43,455 nt of DNA from an uncultured Fibrobacterales bacterium (GTDB lineage: Bacteria; Fibrobacterota; Fibrobacteria; Fibrobacterales; CAWVXU01). The stretch is from positions 1-43,455 of the forward strand of contig CAWVXU010000012.1 of assembly GCA_963934255.1 (NCBI GenBank). Reading direction: 5' to 3'. How positions within the stretch are numbered: position 1 is the first letter of the stretch; the number at the start of each line of letters is the position of its first letter. Position numbers: made by a program. Of this stretch, positions 6,001 to 15,000 are shown piece after piece.

Positions 6001-9000
6001 CAATGCAGTAATATTATTACTTGGCTCAATCAAGTCTCAAGCGTCATCTCAAATTGAACATACTGATGTGCCGGCAGGTAGGGGCAATGGAATTCGGTTA
6101 AATTCATGGATTCAGTCTATTTATTCCGACAAATGGACATGGATTTGGCAATATTTGATTCTATCAATCATTCTCGTTGCTGATTTGACGTTAAATCTCA
6201 TCTAGATATCGTTCAACTTTCAAAAAACACAGTATTGATTCAGAAGATTTCAACCTTGAGCTACCACCCGAGATGCAATTTTGCTAAATTTTAAATTAAA
6301 GTAAGTAATTGTGTCAAAAGCTAATGTTTTTGAATGAGACTAAAGGACAAATGATGAATATTTTAATGGCTGAACCACGTGGATTTTGTGCAGGTGTCGA
6401 TCGTGCAATTCAAATTGTTGAAAAAGCACTAGAAAAATTTGGTGCCCCTATTTATGTTCGCCATGAGATTGTTCATAATAAAGCGGTGGTAGATGCTCTT
6501 AAAGAGCAAGGCGCTATTTTTGTAAAAGAAATTACTGAAGTACCTCATGGGGCTGCAGTTGTTTTTTCAGCACATGGCGTGGCTGAAGTTGTCTATGAAG
6601 AAGCAGCCAAAAAAGAATTAAAAATTATTGATGCAGCGTGTCCGCTTGTTAAAAAAGTTCACAAGAGTGCTAAGCGTCATGACAGCAAAGGCCGTACAAT
6701 TGTTCTGATTGGTCATGATGGTCATCCTGAAGTTGAAGGCACCAAAGGTCAAATTGATGGTGATATGATTCTGGTGAGTTCTCCTGAAGAAGTCGCGTCT
6801 GTTGAGATTGATGATAGTCATGCTTTAGCTTATATTACGCAGACAACATTGTCGACTGACGAGACTAAAGACATTATTGCAGCGCTTAAATTAAAATTTC
6901 CTCGTATTGAAGGCCCTGAAATGGGTGATATGTGTTATGCAACGACTAATAGACAAATGGCTGTGCGCGAACTTGCCGAAAAAGTAGATTTACTTTTGGT
7001 TGTGGGCTCAAGTAATAGCTCAAATTCAAAGCGTCTATCAGAGCTTGGTTCACAGCTTGGAGTCGAGTCACATTTAATTGATTCTAAGGACCATATTGAC
7101 CCTAGTTGGCTTGTGGGTAAAAAACAAGTAGGAATTTCGAGTGGTGCAAGTGCACCAGAGCATTTAGTACAAGGTGTTGTCGCTTGGTTAAAAGAAAACA
7201 CAGACATTGAATCTGTTGAATCTTCAGTTACGATGGAAGAAAATGTAAAGTTCAACTTACCAGAAATACTCAGGTAATTGAGCCAGCGTATGTATGTTAT
7301 TTCAGTTTATCGATGACCTGATGATATTCAAAAAGCCACCTCAAACGAGGTGGCTTTTTGATTTTACTTCATTAGTATCTAGGTCTAGCCTTTTGAATGT
7401 ACTAAGTACATTAGATGAGTTTCTTACCTTTAGGCACAATAACATCAAACAATGTAATAGCAAGCCAACTTACTGTGCTTGTCAGCCAAGGGATACCACC
7501 TTCACCGTCTTTGAAGTCATAATAACCACCGTTATAATAGTTGACTAAGACAAATGGCTCAGATCTTGTTTTGCGCCAATCTTTAGTGAATGGCAAAATC
7601 TTAGACATAAACTCTTGGCCTTCTTGGTCCATTCCGGCTTCGAAAAGAGCTAAGATGCCATAAGCAGCCGCATGATTGTATATCGCGAAGTTTTCAGCCA
7701 CACCTGGTGCCAAAAATGATAATCTGCCGACAGATTCTGTGGGCTGATCAAAAGGCGGATAACAAAGGAGTAAGCCATTGTCATTTCGCAATTTAGAAAC
7801 CATAGAATCCATTGAGATTTGTCCTTTTTCAGGGTCTCTTAGACTCATACCACTTAAAGTGTACCAAGCTTGAGTTAATAGGAAGACACGGTCTTCACCC
7901 CCCACGACTTCCCCCTTTTCAGTGATGCCGCGAGCAAACCATTCACCGGTCCATTGCTTTTGAACCGCATTGAATAACCTTAATTGAATCGCTTCTACAT
8001 CCAAAGGACATTCTTGACCGATTTTTTCATAAATGAAATTCATTTTATCAATCGCCATATAGACAAATTGATTGAGCCAAACAGACTCGCCATTGAGGCC
8101 CATGCCGTTAAGTGCATCATTCCAATCGCCGACACCGATGATAATACAATCATTCGGGCCAAATTGAAGCATGTACTCTAATCCTGCAATGAGATGCTCG
8201 ATGACAGTTCCGGTTTCGCCTTCACCTTTAAACCAGGCTACTTGCTCAAATAAGAAGTCGGTCTCGCCTGTTTGACGGACAAGATGTTCAGCGGCAAGCA
8301 CAAGCCATGCAGGTAAGTCCCTAAAGTCACGTTCATCATCAAAACCACCATCAATAGCCCATTGACGTAGGCAACGGCCGTTTTTGAATTGTTTTGAGCA
8401 AAGATCTAAGAAGATTTCTTTAGCAAGTTCTGGCTCGTAATAACATAAACCCATGACGTCTTGACCGACATCACGAACACCTCTAAAGCCTTCTCGGACC
8501 AGTCCAGCGGCTTGCTGATATATTTGATATCCAAAGAATGTATTGAGGTAAGCGTCAGTTTCTGCATCACCAGTTTTAGGTATTTTGGGATGATTTAGTT
8601 TAGTTTTCCAATCCTCTTTAATGACTGCAAGTTCAGTTTCGACATCGTTGATTGATGTGAAATTGGAGCGAATCACTTCAAGTTGTTCAGACCCAATTCC
8701 AATCACAAGACAAGTCTTAAAAGATTCTCCCGGTTCTAAAGTTACTTTGTATTGGTACACAGCCCCATAGGGGTCCCCTGCAGAAAAGTTTTGACCTAAG
8801 TCTCCACTGAGAAGCTCTTCGGGGAGGATGAAGCTACCGTCTCCCCAGAAGCTTTGAAGATTAGATTGCCATGAGTCTGGAGTCGTGAGGGAAAGTACGA
8901 AACCATCTACAGCGCCCTCTTCCATTTTGGCTACATGGATACAATTATCTTCAAATTTAGAATTGGTAAACCAGCTATAATAATCATGATGAATTTTATG

Positions 9001-12000: not shown

Positions 12001-15000
12001 TGTTTGTTTTGCCAAGTCATCCACATCAGTGTGAGTGCCGCTGCAATCATCCCATCTCGACAAGGTTGGAGTGAAGTCAGCATAACTCCTCCATTTCCTT
12101 CTCCACCAATAGGTGCATTAATAGCAGTCAAAACCAGAGAAACATTGCGTTCACCAACGGCTGCATAATGACATTTTTGACCGTATTTTGCAGCTATAAA
12201 AGAAAGAGCAGCTGAAGTCGATAAATTACACACAACTGGTCCAGGTTCATGAGCTAAAACGTAGTCTGCACAAAGTGGAAGAGTTTGTTCTTCACCCATA
12301 GGTTGTCCATTTTCATCCACCAATGAACAACGATCACCGTCAGGATCGAGTGCAAAACCCAAATCACACTTTTCTTTTATTACTAGCTCACAAAGGTCTT
12401 GCAGGGCATCGTTAGTCGGTTCAGGTGCTCGACCAAAATTACCTGTTGGCTCTTCGTGGACCGAGAAAACTTCACAATTGAGTTGTTCAAGCATTGCACG
12501 CATGGATTCGCCACCAGCGCCGTTGACAGGGTCAATTGCGACGCGAAATTTTTTGGCTTTTAGCTGAGATACATTAATCAATTCCTGGTTAAAAATACCA
12601 TTAATATGTCGTTGGTAAGTCAAACCCTCATCACTAGAAGGCTTGATGTTCCAAGGAGCTGGAGGCCATGGTTTTTGATCTTCAGCATCGAGAAGTTCTA
12701 GGTATCGAGCGACTAGCTCCGGCCCAATAAAACGTCCCTCTTGATCTACTAATTTTAATGCGTTCCATTGAAGCGGATTGTGTGATGCACTGATCATGAT
12801 ACCTGCATCAGCATGAGAGATCGCAGTGAGATATTCGAGTGTAGGGGTCGTAACAATTCCGAGCATTTGACATTCAACTCCAAGCCACTGGCAAGTTGAT
12901 GATATGATTTGTTCAAACGCATATCCACTTTCTCGAGAATCACGACCGACTAAAATTGATTTAGCGCCCATCAGCTCAAGAAAAACTTTGGTATAGTGAG
13001 AAAGAACATCTGGTGTCCAGTCTTCTCCAATTAATCCTCGGATACCCGAGATTGAGCGCATTAACATATTGTTGACCTCCTCACCCTATTTTAAATAATT
13101 TCAGGAATTAAGAGCTAAAAAAAACACATTTCTCGAAAATAATCCTTTAAAGTTCATAAAAGATTTGTTAAGTTTGTCCCACCAAAATCAATGGAGTGAA
13201 ATTATGAGCCGTATTTGTCAAGTTACTGGAAAAACTGGCCTTGTTGGACACAGTGTGTCTCACTCTCAACGTAAAACTTTGAGAAGACAACAGCCAAACC
13301 TACACACTAAACGTTTCTTCATCCCTGAAGAAAACCGCTGGGTGAAGCTAAAAGTTTCTGCAGCTGGTATGCGTACCATCAATAAAAAAGGTATCCAGGC
13401 AGTCGCTTCTGAACTTGGTCTTTAATATTGAATCAAGATAGTCGAAGAGCTTATTCGACTATTTTATAGTAAAAATTTAGTATAACTTAAAAATTTGCAC
13501 AGACCTATTTGGATTTGTGCTTTTTTCGTTTTTTAACCTAAAACTTGAGCGTAAGTTTTTTATAAGCTTGATATAACCTTTTTATAAGCCCCTTGGCCGG
13601 TTGAATTTTTTCAGAATGAAGTATGTTAAAATCAGGGTCTTACAGGCGGGCTAGTTGAGTCGGGATATGATGAAAAAAAACGAAAATAATCCTTTAGAAG
13701 GGATTGAGTTTGTCGATGCACTGGAAGACACCGACAATCAGTTGGGTCCTCCCGGGGACATTGAGGTACCTGATGTCGGAGTCAAGCCCCAAGAAGCAAT
13801 CATGTCTAGAAACCTTGAACTTGAAGATAGGTTGGATAATCTTGAAATTGAAGGTCTAGTAATTCAGGCTGGCTCTGAGTACTCCAACTCTATATCCCAG
13901 GTTTCACCTGCAGATCGAGGCGTCACTTATAAAGACGCTAAAGTTGATGAATGGGATGTTTTCTATGATCGGGCTAAGAGTATTTTTACAGAGCTCAAGA
14001 CGAAACATTACGTTTCTGGTGATTCAATTAAGTCTATAATAGGTTCATTTTTAGATATATTTTCAGTCGATCGAAATATTTTACTCACACTATCTCAACT
14101 TCCTAATTCAAGAGTATACAATCCATCTGAGCATGCGATGAAAGTTTCGATTTTATCTCTTTGTATCGGAACAGCGATGGGTTACGATAAAAACCAACTG
14201 ATTGAATTGGGCATGTGCGCCTTCGCTTCTTCCTTAGGTATGGTCTTTATGGATGATATTTATCTATCCACCAAGCCATTAAATAAAGAGCAACAACTTA
14301 GATTGAGAAGCCATCCGATGGTGGGGGCAAATATTGTAGACTCGACTCGAGGAATGCCAATGGTAGCAAGTCTTGTCGTTTATCAAATTCATGAAAGAGA
14401 AGATGGATTGGGCTATCCTAAGCAACGCAAGGGTCGGTTCATTCATCAGTACGCGAAGATTATTGCAGTGGCTGATGTTTTTCAAGCATTGTGTAGCCCA
14501 AGAGCACATAGGCCGAGCTTTAAGCCGTTTGAGGCAATGACTCGTGTCTTATCCATGGTCAAGATAGGACATCTCGCAGTTGAGGTTGTGAAACCTTTTA
14601 TGCGATATACCTCTCTCTACCCTATCGGCTCATTGGTGAGGCTTGCTGATCAAAAAATAGCCAGGGTGATTGCAGCTAACCAAGAGCAAGTTAAATCGCC
14701 GGTTGTCTCAGTTATTTACGATAGTCATGATACCCTTCTTAAAGATGAAGCAATTTACCAGATTGATTTAAGCCAAGAACTTAAACACCAAATTATTGCA
14801 ACGCTCAGAGAGAGCGATGTCAATACGAGTAAACTCAAGGGTCTTTAAGTAGACTAAATTGTTTTCAGAAACATGGGGGAACCGATTGCCTTTTCTGCTG
14901 CTTGTATAAAGGTCCCCATTTCTAAATCTTCAGGTAAAAATTGTTTTCTCACTAAAGACACAAAAACATCACGCAGGATTTCACAGTCATAGAGTGCTCT

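What a model noticed while it worked through the whole genome (the two positions that open the first line are those of the whole stretch)
7411..13067. A Fibrobacterales genome that has lost the order's cellulases and is built for chitin
The hallmark cellulolytic/hemicellulolytic families of Fibrobacterales (GH5, GH8, GH45, GH10, CBM4_9, CBM6) are absent, while the genome carries 10 GH18 and 5 GH19 chitinases, 3 GH20 and 2 GH3 N-acetylhexosaminidases and a GH94 phosphorylase-GH3-CBM9-phosphoglucosamine mutase cluster (C12:7411-13067) that fits phosphorolytic use of chitobiose. Several enzymes carry T9SS sorting domains. The organism is predicted to degrade chitin, not cellulose.
Evidence so far: Call 64 (pfam.tsv): Glyco_hydro_18 x10 (g00203, g00345, g00486, g00629, g01586, g01588, g01949, g01995, g02025, g02339), Glyco_hydro_19 x5 (g00170, g00838, g00841, g01392, g01931), Glyco_hydro_20 x3, Glyco_hydro_3 x2, Glyco_hydro_94 g00655 next to g00656 (GH3), g00657 (CBM9), g00658 (mutase); ROK kinase g01827 beside GH20 g01826. 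missing.tsv: GH5 in 155/156 of the order, GH8 154, GH45 149, GH10 150, CBM_4_9 152, CBM_6 149; none in pfam.tsv here. relatives.tsv: GH19 in 2 of 156, GH20 in 2 of 156. Call 60: six-frame DNA search with PF00150 (GH5): 0 matches. Call 63: the 12 nearest relatives have 1 to 29 GH5 matches each (sister genus 8). Only 2 GH9 and 1 GH44 remain. T9SS type-A sorting domain [...]
(Added by a program. Inside this text positions count along the whole contig: contig position 1 is position 1 of the stretch shown here. "Call 12" and the like, gene names such as g00115 and contig names such as C1 are that model's own, and its searches are not shown. The text may have been shortened before it was handed on; [...] marks where a part breaks off. 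The agent that wrote the report below was given it as the finding of a first reader that could run no searches.)

Follow-up and report, generated by a model that had tools for sequence, protein, structure and literature searches.

The report
Chitin-eating relative of cellulose-degrading Fibrobacter
This uncultured, oxygen-respiring member of an order famous for digesting cellulose has dropped almost all of its cellulases and kept a full kit for eating chitin, which it shares gene-for-gene with a second branch of the order, suggesting their ancestor ate both polymers.

Summary
Confirmed and extended. The genome has no GH5 (156 of 156 other Fibrobacterales do), GH8, GH45 or GH10. It has 11 GH18 (10 with DxDxE), 5 GH19, 3 GH20 and secreted chitinases. 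It still keeps one secreted endoglucanase-type GH9 and one GH44.

Corrections:
- The window's mutase is the order's housekeeping GlmM.
- The GH94 is neither a known chitobiose nor a known cellobiose phosphorylase. It belongs to a separate clade that sits beside hexosaminidases in 15 of 21 loci, against 1 of 59 for other GH94s.
- NagA and an intact NagB are missing; a pfk-SIS-PIG-L operon probably replaces them.

New: a second, non-sister family (G001, G002) has the same profile. It shares chitinases at the same core-gene position, where the cellulolytic sister genus has none, and a sister order carries orthologues. Best reading: an aerobic, flagellated chitin specialist, descended from an ancestor that used both cellulose and chitin, with reciprocal losses. 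Chitinolytic Fibrobacterota are already known from other orders, so this is a new variant. Nothing is shown biochemically.

The parts
11712..13067 (-). Phosphohexomutase, GlmM-like; a housekeeping gene of the order that heads the operon; could also convert GlcNAc-1-P (inferred)
   Evidence: Pfam PGM_PMM I-IV; TIGR03990 402 bits, under the 439 cut-off; orthologue in 17 of 20 genomes
11062..11721 (-). Stand-alone CBM9_2 protein, tied to the GlcNAc module
   Evidence: PF16011 E 4e-30; follows glmM in G001 (43%) but not in cellulolytic G155; ends the pfk-SIS-PIG-L-epimerase operon in G239
9466..11046 (-). GH3 beta-N-acetylglucosaminidase, NagZ type, no evident signal peptide
   Evidence: best PDB hits are all N-acetylglucosaminidases, 6k5j E 3e-70; KHFPG...DTH motif with the Asp-His pair; 51% to G001, where it also precedes the GH94
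7411..9465 (-). GH94 glycoside phosphorylase of an uncharacterised clade (ATG at 9462); predicted to act on a GlcNAc oligosaccharide, probably N,N'-diacetylchitobiose
   Evidence: Pfam; model pLDDT 90.4, TM 0.83-0.91 and 22-23% identity to solved disaccharide phosphorylases; own clade with support 100; hexosaminidase neighbour in 15 of 21 loci; 3 of 157 genomes of the order
7328..7361 (.). Terminator-like hairpin (15 pairs) between the operon and the convergent ispH gene
   Evidence: consensus match only
13165..13425 (+). Divergent small core gene (looks like ribosomal protein L28; name from recall) that anchors the synteny with relatives
   Evidence: 68-78% identical and next to glmM in G001, G003, G155, G156

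Best explanation
G000 is an aerobic, flagellated Fibrobacterales specialised on chitin. Steps: (1) T9SS-sorted and other secreted GH18 and GH19 chitinases cut chitin (genes shown, activity inferred). (2) GH20 and GH3 hexosaminidases and CE4 deacetylases trim the oligomers (inferred). (3) In the cytoplasm the window's GH94 phosphorolyses chitobiose to GlcNAc-1-P plus GlcNAc, GH3 and GH20 hydrolyse it, and an exo-type GH9 handles deacetylated dimers (inferred; GH94 substrate about 60%). (4) A ROK kinase and a mutase give the 6-phosphate. A PIG-L deacetylase and a SIS-fold NagB-II-type deaminase replace the missing NagA and NagB and feed fructose-6-P to the adjacent PPi-phosphofructokinase (inferred from operon and active-site residues). 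(5) Carbon is respired through a caa3-type oxidase (genes shown). Origin (about 65%): the chitin kit is old. The ancestor of the order carried both kits; G000 and family f2 each lost the cellulases, while Fibrobacteraceae, f4 and G003 lost the chitin module.
For: Counts and absences. DxDxE in 10 of 11 GH18. T9SS-like tails on 5 GH18 and 2 GH19 by an own HMM seeded with those tails, with Pfam support for two of the GH18. GH94 neighbourhood 15 of 21 against 1 of 59. C67 GH9 matches 3h7l/5dgq/6gdt at E 1e-155 to 1e-164; the enzymes 6gdt and PBPRA0520 prefer chitosan oligomers (PMC6096475). The SIS protein has invariant E224/H240 and S50/S94, matching the spacing of SdNagBII E227/H243 and S52/S97. 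It is in 3 of 157 genomes of the order, the same three that carry the GH94. Shared radC-[GH18 block]-map synteny in G000, G001 and G002, with radC and map adjacent in G003. Three GH18 orthologue pairs at support 97-99. G000 is sister to cellulolytic G003; a G000+f2 clade is rejected, AU p=0.0375. Sister-order orthologues. COX1, COX2-cytochrome c and flagellin.
Against: No growth, expression or enzyme data. NagA not found and the NagB-PIG-L fusion lacks the catalytic Asp-His, so step 4 rests on substitutes. An intact secreted GH9 endoglucanase, GH44, GH16 and CE2 remain. No chitin-binding CBM5/12 was seen on the chitinases. No chito-oligosaccharide transporter was identified. The tree test is marginal: fast search, G003 has 2059 of 5735 columns. 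The GH94 copies of G000 and f2 are not sisters, and most of their GH19s are separate expansions. About 8% of the genome is missing and only part of the secretome was scanned.
Confidence: 0.75

Rival explanations
1. The chitinases open chitin-walled organisms (fungi, diatoms, small arthropods) and the cell feeds mainly on their contents or on mixed wall glucans, not on GlcNAc.
For: Secreted GH16 and peptidases M64 and M66. NagA absent. A related sister-order MAG took its carbon from living fungal hyphae (PMC9700909). In f2 the single GH5 is exo-1,3-glucanase-like and lies beside a GH18.
Against: A conserved cytoplasmic set (GH3, GH94, exo-GH9, ROK, SIS, PIG-L) travels with the chitinases, which fits use of the sugar. 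This rival is partly compatible with the best explanation.
Confidence: 0.15
2. A reduced beta-glucan generalist: GH9, GH44, GH16 and CE2 still attack cellulose or xyloglucan, and the GH94 is a cellobiose or cellobionate phosphorylase.
For: The C34 GH9 matches endoglucanases (E 1e-49) with intact motifs and is kept in G001 and G002 (42-44%). The GH94 catalytic half scores best with cellobionate phosphorylase 4zle.
Against: Two cellulase candidates against 16 chitinases. The order's own CBP-type GH94 (G003, f3) is absent. The GH94 clade's neighbours are hexosaminidases. Chitinispirillum grows only on chitin although it has GH5/GH9 genes and endoglucanase activity (PMC4814513).
Confidence: 0.12
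3. Origin rival: the chitin module was not ancestral but moved sideways between G000's lineage, f2 and Spirochaetes.
For: The GH94 clade is 19 Spirochaetota loci of 21, and the G000 and f2 copies are not sisters. The radC-[GH18]-map block is seen only in f1 and f2, not in 13 other ilvB regions, several of which end at contig ends.
Against: Three separate modules sit at the same core-gene sites (radC-map, glmM-CBM9_2, pfk-SIS). Identities are in the range of the neighbouring core genes (GH18b 47%, PIG-L 52%, SIS 65% against radC 45%, map 60%, ilvB 70%). Orthologues occur in sister orders. GC3 is native. Transfer may still hold for the GH3-GH94 pair alone.
Confidence: 0.25
4. Assembly or binning artefact: the cellulases are in the missing 8%, or the chitinases come from another organism.
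For: 138 contigs, 92% complete.
Against: The less complete sister G003 (78%) shows 8 GH5, 4 GH8, 2 GH45, 1 GH10 and 10 GH9 matches. The chitinases are embedded among core genes with orthologues in relatives. Two further genomes show the same profile.
Confidence: 0.03

Closest known systems
Chitinivibrio alkaliphilus and Chitinispirillum alkaliphilum (Fibrobacterota; PMC4814513 and PMC4704652, passages read)
   Same: Chitin specialists of the same phylum with GH18, GH19, Por/T9SS-sorted enzymes, a GH94 phosphorylase route and GH9 chitobiases. One G000 GH19 and two GH18 group with enzymes from that part of the phylum.
   Different: Other classes; anaerobic fermenters; NagA plus deaminase route; keep GH5 and GH8; their GH94 is a different clade. 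None of the 8 genomes of family f14 has the SIS protein.
Fibrobacterota mCT95, family UBA11236 (PMC9700909, passages read)
   Same: MAG with 9 GH18 and 2 GH19 and 13C labelling from fungal hyphae; the same kind of inference.
   Different: Not Fibrobacterales (from my recall of GTDB). Sister-order genomes such as G249 keep GH5, GH8 and GH10, so they are generalists. The passages read report no loss of cellulases.
Fibrobacter succinogenes and Ca. Fibromonas (Fibrobacteraceae)
   Same: Same order; T9SS, Fib_succ_major and TIGR02147 proteins, GlmM, an exo-type GH9, about 2 GH18.
   Different: They carry 3-14 GH5 matches in a capped count and CBP-type GH94; 1 of 151 has GH19 and 0 of 151 the SIS protein. 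[quoted passage not shown]
Vibrio (GlcNAc)2 operon: ChbP (1v7v), exo-GH9 VC0615 (6gdt), hexosaminidase, mutase
   Same: Same logic: phosphorylase plus hexosaminidase plus exo-glucosaminidase; the C67 GH9 is a close homologue.
   Different: The GH94 is only 23% identical by structure, and about 100-140 residues shorter than the solved enzymes. No ABC transporter in the G000 operon, although Spirochaete loci have one.
NagB-II / GlmD SIS-fold deaminases and the Thermococcus PIG-L diacetylchitobiose deacetylase
   Same: Profile hits 8eol and 1j5x with matching catalytic spacing; the PIG-L protein hits 8bgn and 3we7.
   Different: Weak similarity (E 1e-8 to 1e-10); GlmS isomerase domains score equally; substrates are untested.

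Membership tests
Order Fibrobacterales | Placement with Fibrobacteraceae on marker trees | tested here: met
   Order clade support 100 on 5735 columns; sister of G003, 94.6; RpoB agrees
Cellulolytic Fibrobacterales | Multi-copy GH5, GH8, GH45, GH10 | tested here: not met
   0 each
Cellulolytic Fibrobacterales | Endoglucanase-type GH9 and GH44 | tested here: met
   One of each, secreted, motifs intact
Cellulolytic Fibrobacterales | The order's CBP-type GH94 | tested here: not met
   The only GH94 falls outside the G003/f3 clade
Chitin specialist of Chitinivibrio/Chitinispirillum type | GH18 plus GH19 with catalytic residues, secreted | tested here: met
   the first GH19 glutamate motif is present in 5 of 5, the second was not checked rigorously
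Chitin specialist of Chitinivibrio/Chitinispirillum type | NagA plus NagB | tested here: not met
   NagA 0 candidates; the PF01182 hit lies between zwf and gnd, so a 6-phosphogluconolactonase; substitutes present
Chitin specialist of Chitinivibrio/Chitinispirillum type | Anaerobic fermentative metabolism | tested here: not met
   COX1, COX2-cytochrome c, NrfD and multiheme cytochrome
Chitin specialist of Chitinivibrio/Chitinispirillum type | Growth on insoluble chitin | not testable with these tools
   No culture
GH94 N,N'-diacetylchitobiose phosphorylase (EC 2.4.1.280) | GH94 fold with invariant RD, WND and H motifs | tested here: met
   roles of these residues recalled, positions aligned
GH94 N,N'-diacetylchitobiose phosphorylase (EC 2.4.1.280) | Closer to characterised ChbP than to other GH94 specificities | tested here: not met
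   1v7v E 7e-47, CBP 2e-48, cellobionate phosphorylase 2e-46; Foldseek rank 10
GH94 N,N'-diacetylchitobiose phosphorylase (EC 2.4.1.280) | Genomic context of GlcNAc-oligomer use | tested here: met
   15 of 21 against 1 of 59; ABC transporter and ROK genes nearby
GH94 N,N'-diacetylchitobiose phosphorylase (EC 2.4.1.280) | Releases GlcNAc-1-P from chitobiose | not testable with these tools
   Needs an assay
GH3 NagZ | KHFPG(H)G-x4-D(S/T)H motif (recalled) and nearest structures | tested here: met
   Asp-His pair kept, HG after KHFPG replaced by MR
NagB-II SIS-fold deaminase | Two SIS domains, no glutaminase domain, catalytic Glu and His 16 apart | tested here: met
   337 aa; E224/H240 invariant in 28 sequences; activity untested

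The most novel reading that the evidence does not exclude
Fibrobacter's cellulose specialism is a derived half of a dual ancestral system, and the order holds at least two independent chitin-specialist lineages: aerobic G000, and a genome-reduced family (f2) that seems to lack GlmS and whose only GH5 is a 1,3-glucanase, i.e. a fungal-wall eater. A named yak-omasum Fibrobacterales record (L136) has the same GH3-GH94 pair; if it belongs to such a lineage (not tested), rumen fungi have a specialist bacterial consumer. Both lineages use a short GH94 clade with a new or convergent GlcNAc-oligomer specificity and a NagA-independent route.
Probability: 0.4. Interest if true: 0.75.

Novelty: new variant of a known kind. 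Interest (0 to 1): 0.58.

Why it matters
Fibrobacterales is read as a marker of cellulose digestion in guts, digesters and sediments; that reading fails for at least two deep lineages. The still unexplained Fibrobacter way of attacking crystalline polymers can now be tested by subtraction: genes kept in both chitin and cellulose specialists are general adhesion, secretion or uptake machinery, while genes that follow one kit are substrate-specific. The Fibrobacterota-only outer-membrane-like proteins beside GH20 and GH18 are candidates. The work also yields an uncharacterised GH94 clade with a testable substrate, of use for oligosaccharide synthesis, and a candidate NagA-independent GlcNAc operon.

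Tried and rejected
- Single-protein locus search for the GH94 found nothing; the alignment search worked.
- The window's mutase as a chitin-specific gene: rejected.
- The PF01182 hit as NagB: rejected, it lies in zwf-pgl-gnd. The C27 PIG-L protein is BshB1, not a chitin enzyme.
- The exo-type GH9 as a chitin marker: weakened. Cellulolytic G107 and G003 have 34-39% homologues and f2 lacks it.
- RpoB alone left the four families unresolved (quick tree, careful search unfinished).
- Reading the GH94 substrate from active-site residues: no usable rule in the passages read.
- Single-sequence fold of the SIS protein failed (pLDDT 32) and was not used.
- ESM Atlas gave only sub-threshold leads for C16:9189-11579 and unnamed Fibrobacterota clusters for C64:6352-9000.
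- My T9SS HMM was seeded with three proteins that are probably not T9SS cargo (two end like OmpA proteins), so 3 of its 30 rows are suspect; the chitinase tails were also seeds.
- Promoter scan at chance level.
- Regex screens for hydrogenases, PFL, LPMO and GH46 were negative but are weak tests.
- Three look-ups of earlier findings returned nothing.

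
Full report
1. Observation. The window is contig C12 of a 2.67 Mb, 138-contig genome, G000 (38.6% GC, 92% complete). At 7411-13067 four genes run head to tail on the minus strand: a phosphohexomutase, a CBM9_2 protein, a GH3 and a GH94. The genome-wide claims hold. GH18: 11 matches, 10 over cut-off, 10 of 11 with DxDxE and one with NxDxE. GH19: 5. GH20: 3 genes. GH5: 0, whereas 156 of 156 other Fibrobacterales have it. GH8, GH45 and GH10 are also 0, and 16 catalytic domains from relatives find nothing by tblastn. 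Incompleteness does not explain this: the 78% complete sister genus G003 shows 8 GH5, 4 GH8, 2 GH45, 1 GH10 and 10 GH9 matches, and no GH18, GH19 or GH20. CBM4_9 and CBM6 were tested only with 4 queries.

2. The window cluster. The mutase has orthologues in 17 of 20 genomes tested, cellulolytic ones included; it is the housekeeping GlmM-like gene. The CBM9_2 gene follows it in G001 but not in cellulolytic G155, and in sister-order G239 a homologue ends the GlcNAc operon described below. The GH3 is NagZ-type. The GH94 folds as a GH94 (pLDDT 90.4). It is 22-23% identical to solved cellobiose, chitobiose and cellobionate phosphorylases alike. It forms its own clade (support 100), apart from the CBP-type GH94 of G003 and Fibrobacteraceae and from the GH94 of family f14. 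The clade comprises 21 fetched loci at 40-56% identity, 19 of them Spirochaetota (the tool kept the best 80 of 193 relatives). In 15 of 21 a GH20, a NagZ-type GH3 or an exo-type GH9 lies in the locus, against 1 of 59 more distant GH94 loci. Of the 6 without, three have almost no upstream flank, one has NagB next door and two have nothing relevant. Kin are not independent, but three different hexosaminidase families fill the slot. I put chitobiose phosphorolysis at about 60%; another GlcNAc or GlcN oligomer is the main alternative.

3. The downstream route. NagA is not found, and the Glucosamine_iso hit is the pgl gene of zwf-pgl-gnd. On C14, however, a PPi-phosphofructokinase, a 337-aa SIS protein, a PIG-L deacetylase and an aldose epimerase lie in one orientation, interrupted by a kinase gene. 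The SIS profile hits NagB-II 8eol and GlmS isomerase domains weakly, and its invariant E224/H240 match the spacing of SdNagBII E227/H243. It occurs in 13 of 296 genomes of the phylum and 3 of 157 of the order; 7 of the 13 also have GH19. The operon is contiguous in G239 and G242. On C64 a diverged NagB-PIG-L fusion, whose NagB half lacks the Asp-His pair, precedes a GH20, a CBM30-like protein and three Fibrobacterota-type outer-membrane-like proteins. In G249 two of these proteins and the GH20 sit beside two GH18. A ROK kinase lies beside another GH20. The C67 GH9 matches the Vibrio and Photobacterium exo-glucosaminidases (PMC6096475), but cellulolytic relatives have more distant homologues.

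4. What speaks against a pure chitin diet. The C34 GH9 is an endoglucanase-type enzyme with intact motifs and a T9SS-like tail, kept also in G001 and G002. A GH44, a GH16 and a CE2 are secreted too. Some beta-glucan activity is likely. Chitinispirillum shows that such genes need not support growth (PMC4814513). I scanned only part of the secretome: of 532 candidate secreted proteins 447 lay outside the loci then held, and a 44-protein scan covered some of the top ones. Further hydrolases may exist. No chitin-binding module and no oligomer transporter were identified.

5. Lifestyle. COX1, a COX2-cytochrome c fusion, an ACIII-like NrfD cluster and flagellin are present, so the organism is probably aerobic and motile, unlike Fibrobacter. 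A NqrB motif suggests sodium bioenergetics (regex only). I did not determine the habitat.

6. G001 and G002 (family f2; 2.1 and 1.6 Mb, 95 and 92% complete) have 17 and 9 GH18 matches, GH19 (5 genes and 2 fragments), one GH9, one GH5 and no GH8, GH45 or GH10. They are the only other carriers of the GH94 and the SIS protein in the order. The G001 GH5 is closest to exo-1,3-glucanases and lies beside a GH18, which points to fungal walls. They have NagA and no strong GlmS-type SIS match.

7. Origin. On 5735 marker columns G000 groups with cellulolytic G003 (94.6), then f4 (88), then f2 (84), sister to Fibrobacteraceae. A G000+f2 clade is rejected only marginally (AU p=0.0375). Yet G000 and f2 share a GH18 block between radC and map, where G003 has the two core genes about 90 bases apart on one contig. 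They share three GH18 orthologue pairs, glmM-CBM9_2, pfk-SIS and PIG-L-epimerase. Sister-order G249 has 20 GH18 matches, an orthologue of the radC-linked chitinase and also 6 GH5 matches. Three G003 GH5s are 47-53% identical to Fibrobacteraceae GH5s and its GH94 groups with theirs. The simplest account is an ancestor with both kits and reciprocal losses. Against it, most GH19s are separate expansions and the GH3-GH94 pair may have been exchanged with Spirochaetes.

8. Prior knowledge. I read passages only, no supplements: PMC4704652, PMC4814513, PMC9700909, PMC6096475, PMC10201695, PMC9052796, PMC8950772, PMC13374861 (106, no mention of the group) and bioRxiv 10.64898/2026.10.06.756956 (86). 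Chitin specialists are known in Chitinivibrionia and suggested for a UBA11236 MAG. PMC4704652 limits use of chitin products to Chitinivibrionia. Searches showed no paper on a cellulase-depleted, chitinolytic Fibrobacterales. The library lacks most subscription journals, and supplements of MAG catalogues, which I did not see, may list these counts.

9. Verdict. A real, well-supported substrate switch inside a textbook cellulolytic order, occurring twice, with a plausible complete pathway built partly from non-canonical parts. It is a new variant of a known kind. Chitin specialist about 0.8; dual ancestor about 0.65; GH94 as chitobiose phosphorylase about 0.6. Interest 0.58.

Noticed in passing
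G000 C14:26633-33431 (L308:5134-11932): pfk-SIS-[sensor kinase]-PIG-L-aldose epimerase, a candidate NagA/NagB-independent GlcNAc operon conserved in sister orders; the SIS family is large (4761 homologues at E<=1e-80 among 8000 scored) and unnamed.
   Followed up: yes
G000 C64:1615-13218 (L242): Diverged NagB-PIG-L fusion, GH20, CBM30-like protein and three large Fibrobacterota-only outer-membrane-like proteins; partly conserved beside GH18 genes in G249. Candidate uptake system.
   Followed up: partly
L311, L314 and whole genomes G001, G002: No GlmS-type SIS match in two 92-95% complete genomes: possible dependence on external amino sugar.
   Followed up: no
L323:157-5514: 1785-aa G001 protein with many Ig/cadherin-like repeats ending in a GH19 domain: a chitinase on a long stalk. 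G000 has repeat proteins of similar type without the GH19 (C19:23809-29205).
   Followed up: no
L488:1190-3580 (G000 C16:9189-11579): 796-aa secreted protein of no Pfam family; its G001 homologue (35%) lies between nagA and a GH18. The Atlas hints at a glycoside-hydrolase-like fold below threshold. Candidate new chitin- or glucan-active enzyme.
   Followed up: partly
L545:12757-17213, L514, L546: caa3-type oxidase, ACIII-like cluster and two flagellin-like genes: an aerobic, motile Fibrobacterales.
   Followed up: partly
L310:705-1886 (G000 C55): Second GH3 is a secreted NagZ-like protein in which the Asp of the DSH motif region is altered (NSDH); may serve another role.
   Followed up: no
L533:3-785 and L541:2001-3893: Two secreted CE4 polysaccharide deacetylases; they would supply deacetylated oligomers for the exo-GH9.
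   Followed up: no
L528:4380-8386: Secreted peptidase M66 beside a SASA-family acetylesterase; peptidase M64 on C102.
   Followed up: no
L309:6981-7724: BshB1 above its NCBIfam cut-off beside a glycosyltransferase and a BshC-sized gene: probable bacillithiol synthesis.
   Followed up: no
G155, G156 (family f4): 5.2-5.3 Mb genomes; G155 has 29 GH5 matches but no GH18, GH10 or GH94 match: another distinct polysaccharide specialism in the order.
   Followed up: no
window 18976-24713 and 27646-31506: Omp85/POTRA gene with a 1310-aa partner of no Pfam family (TamA/TamB-like, from recall) and a succinate dehydrogenase/fumarate reductase cluster; ordinary.
   Followed up: no
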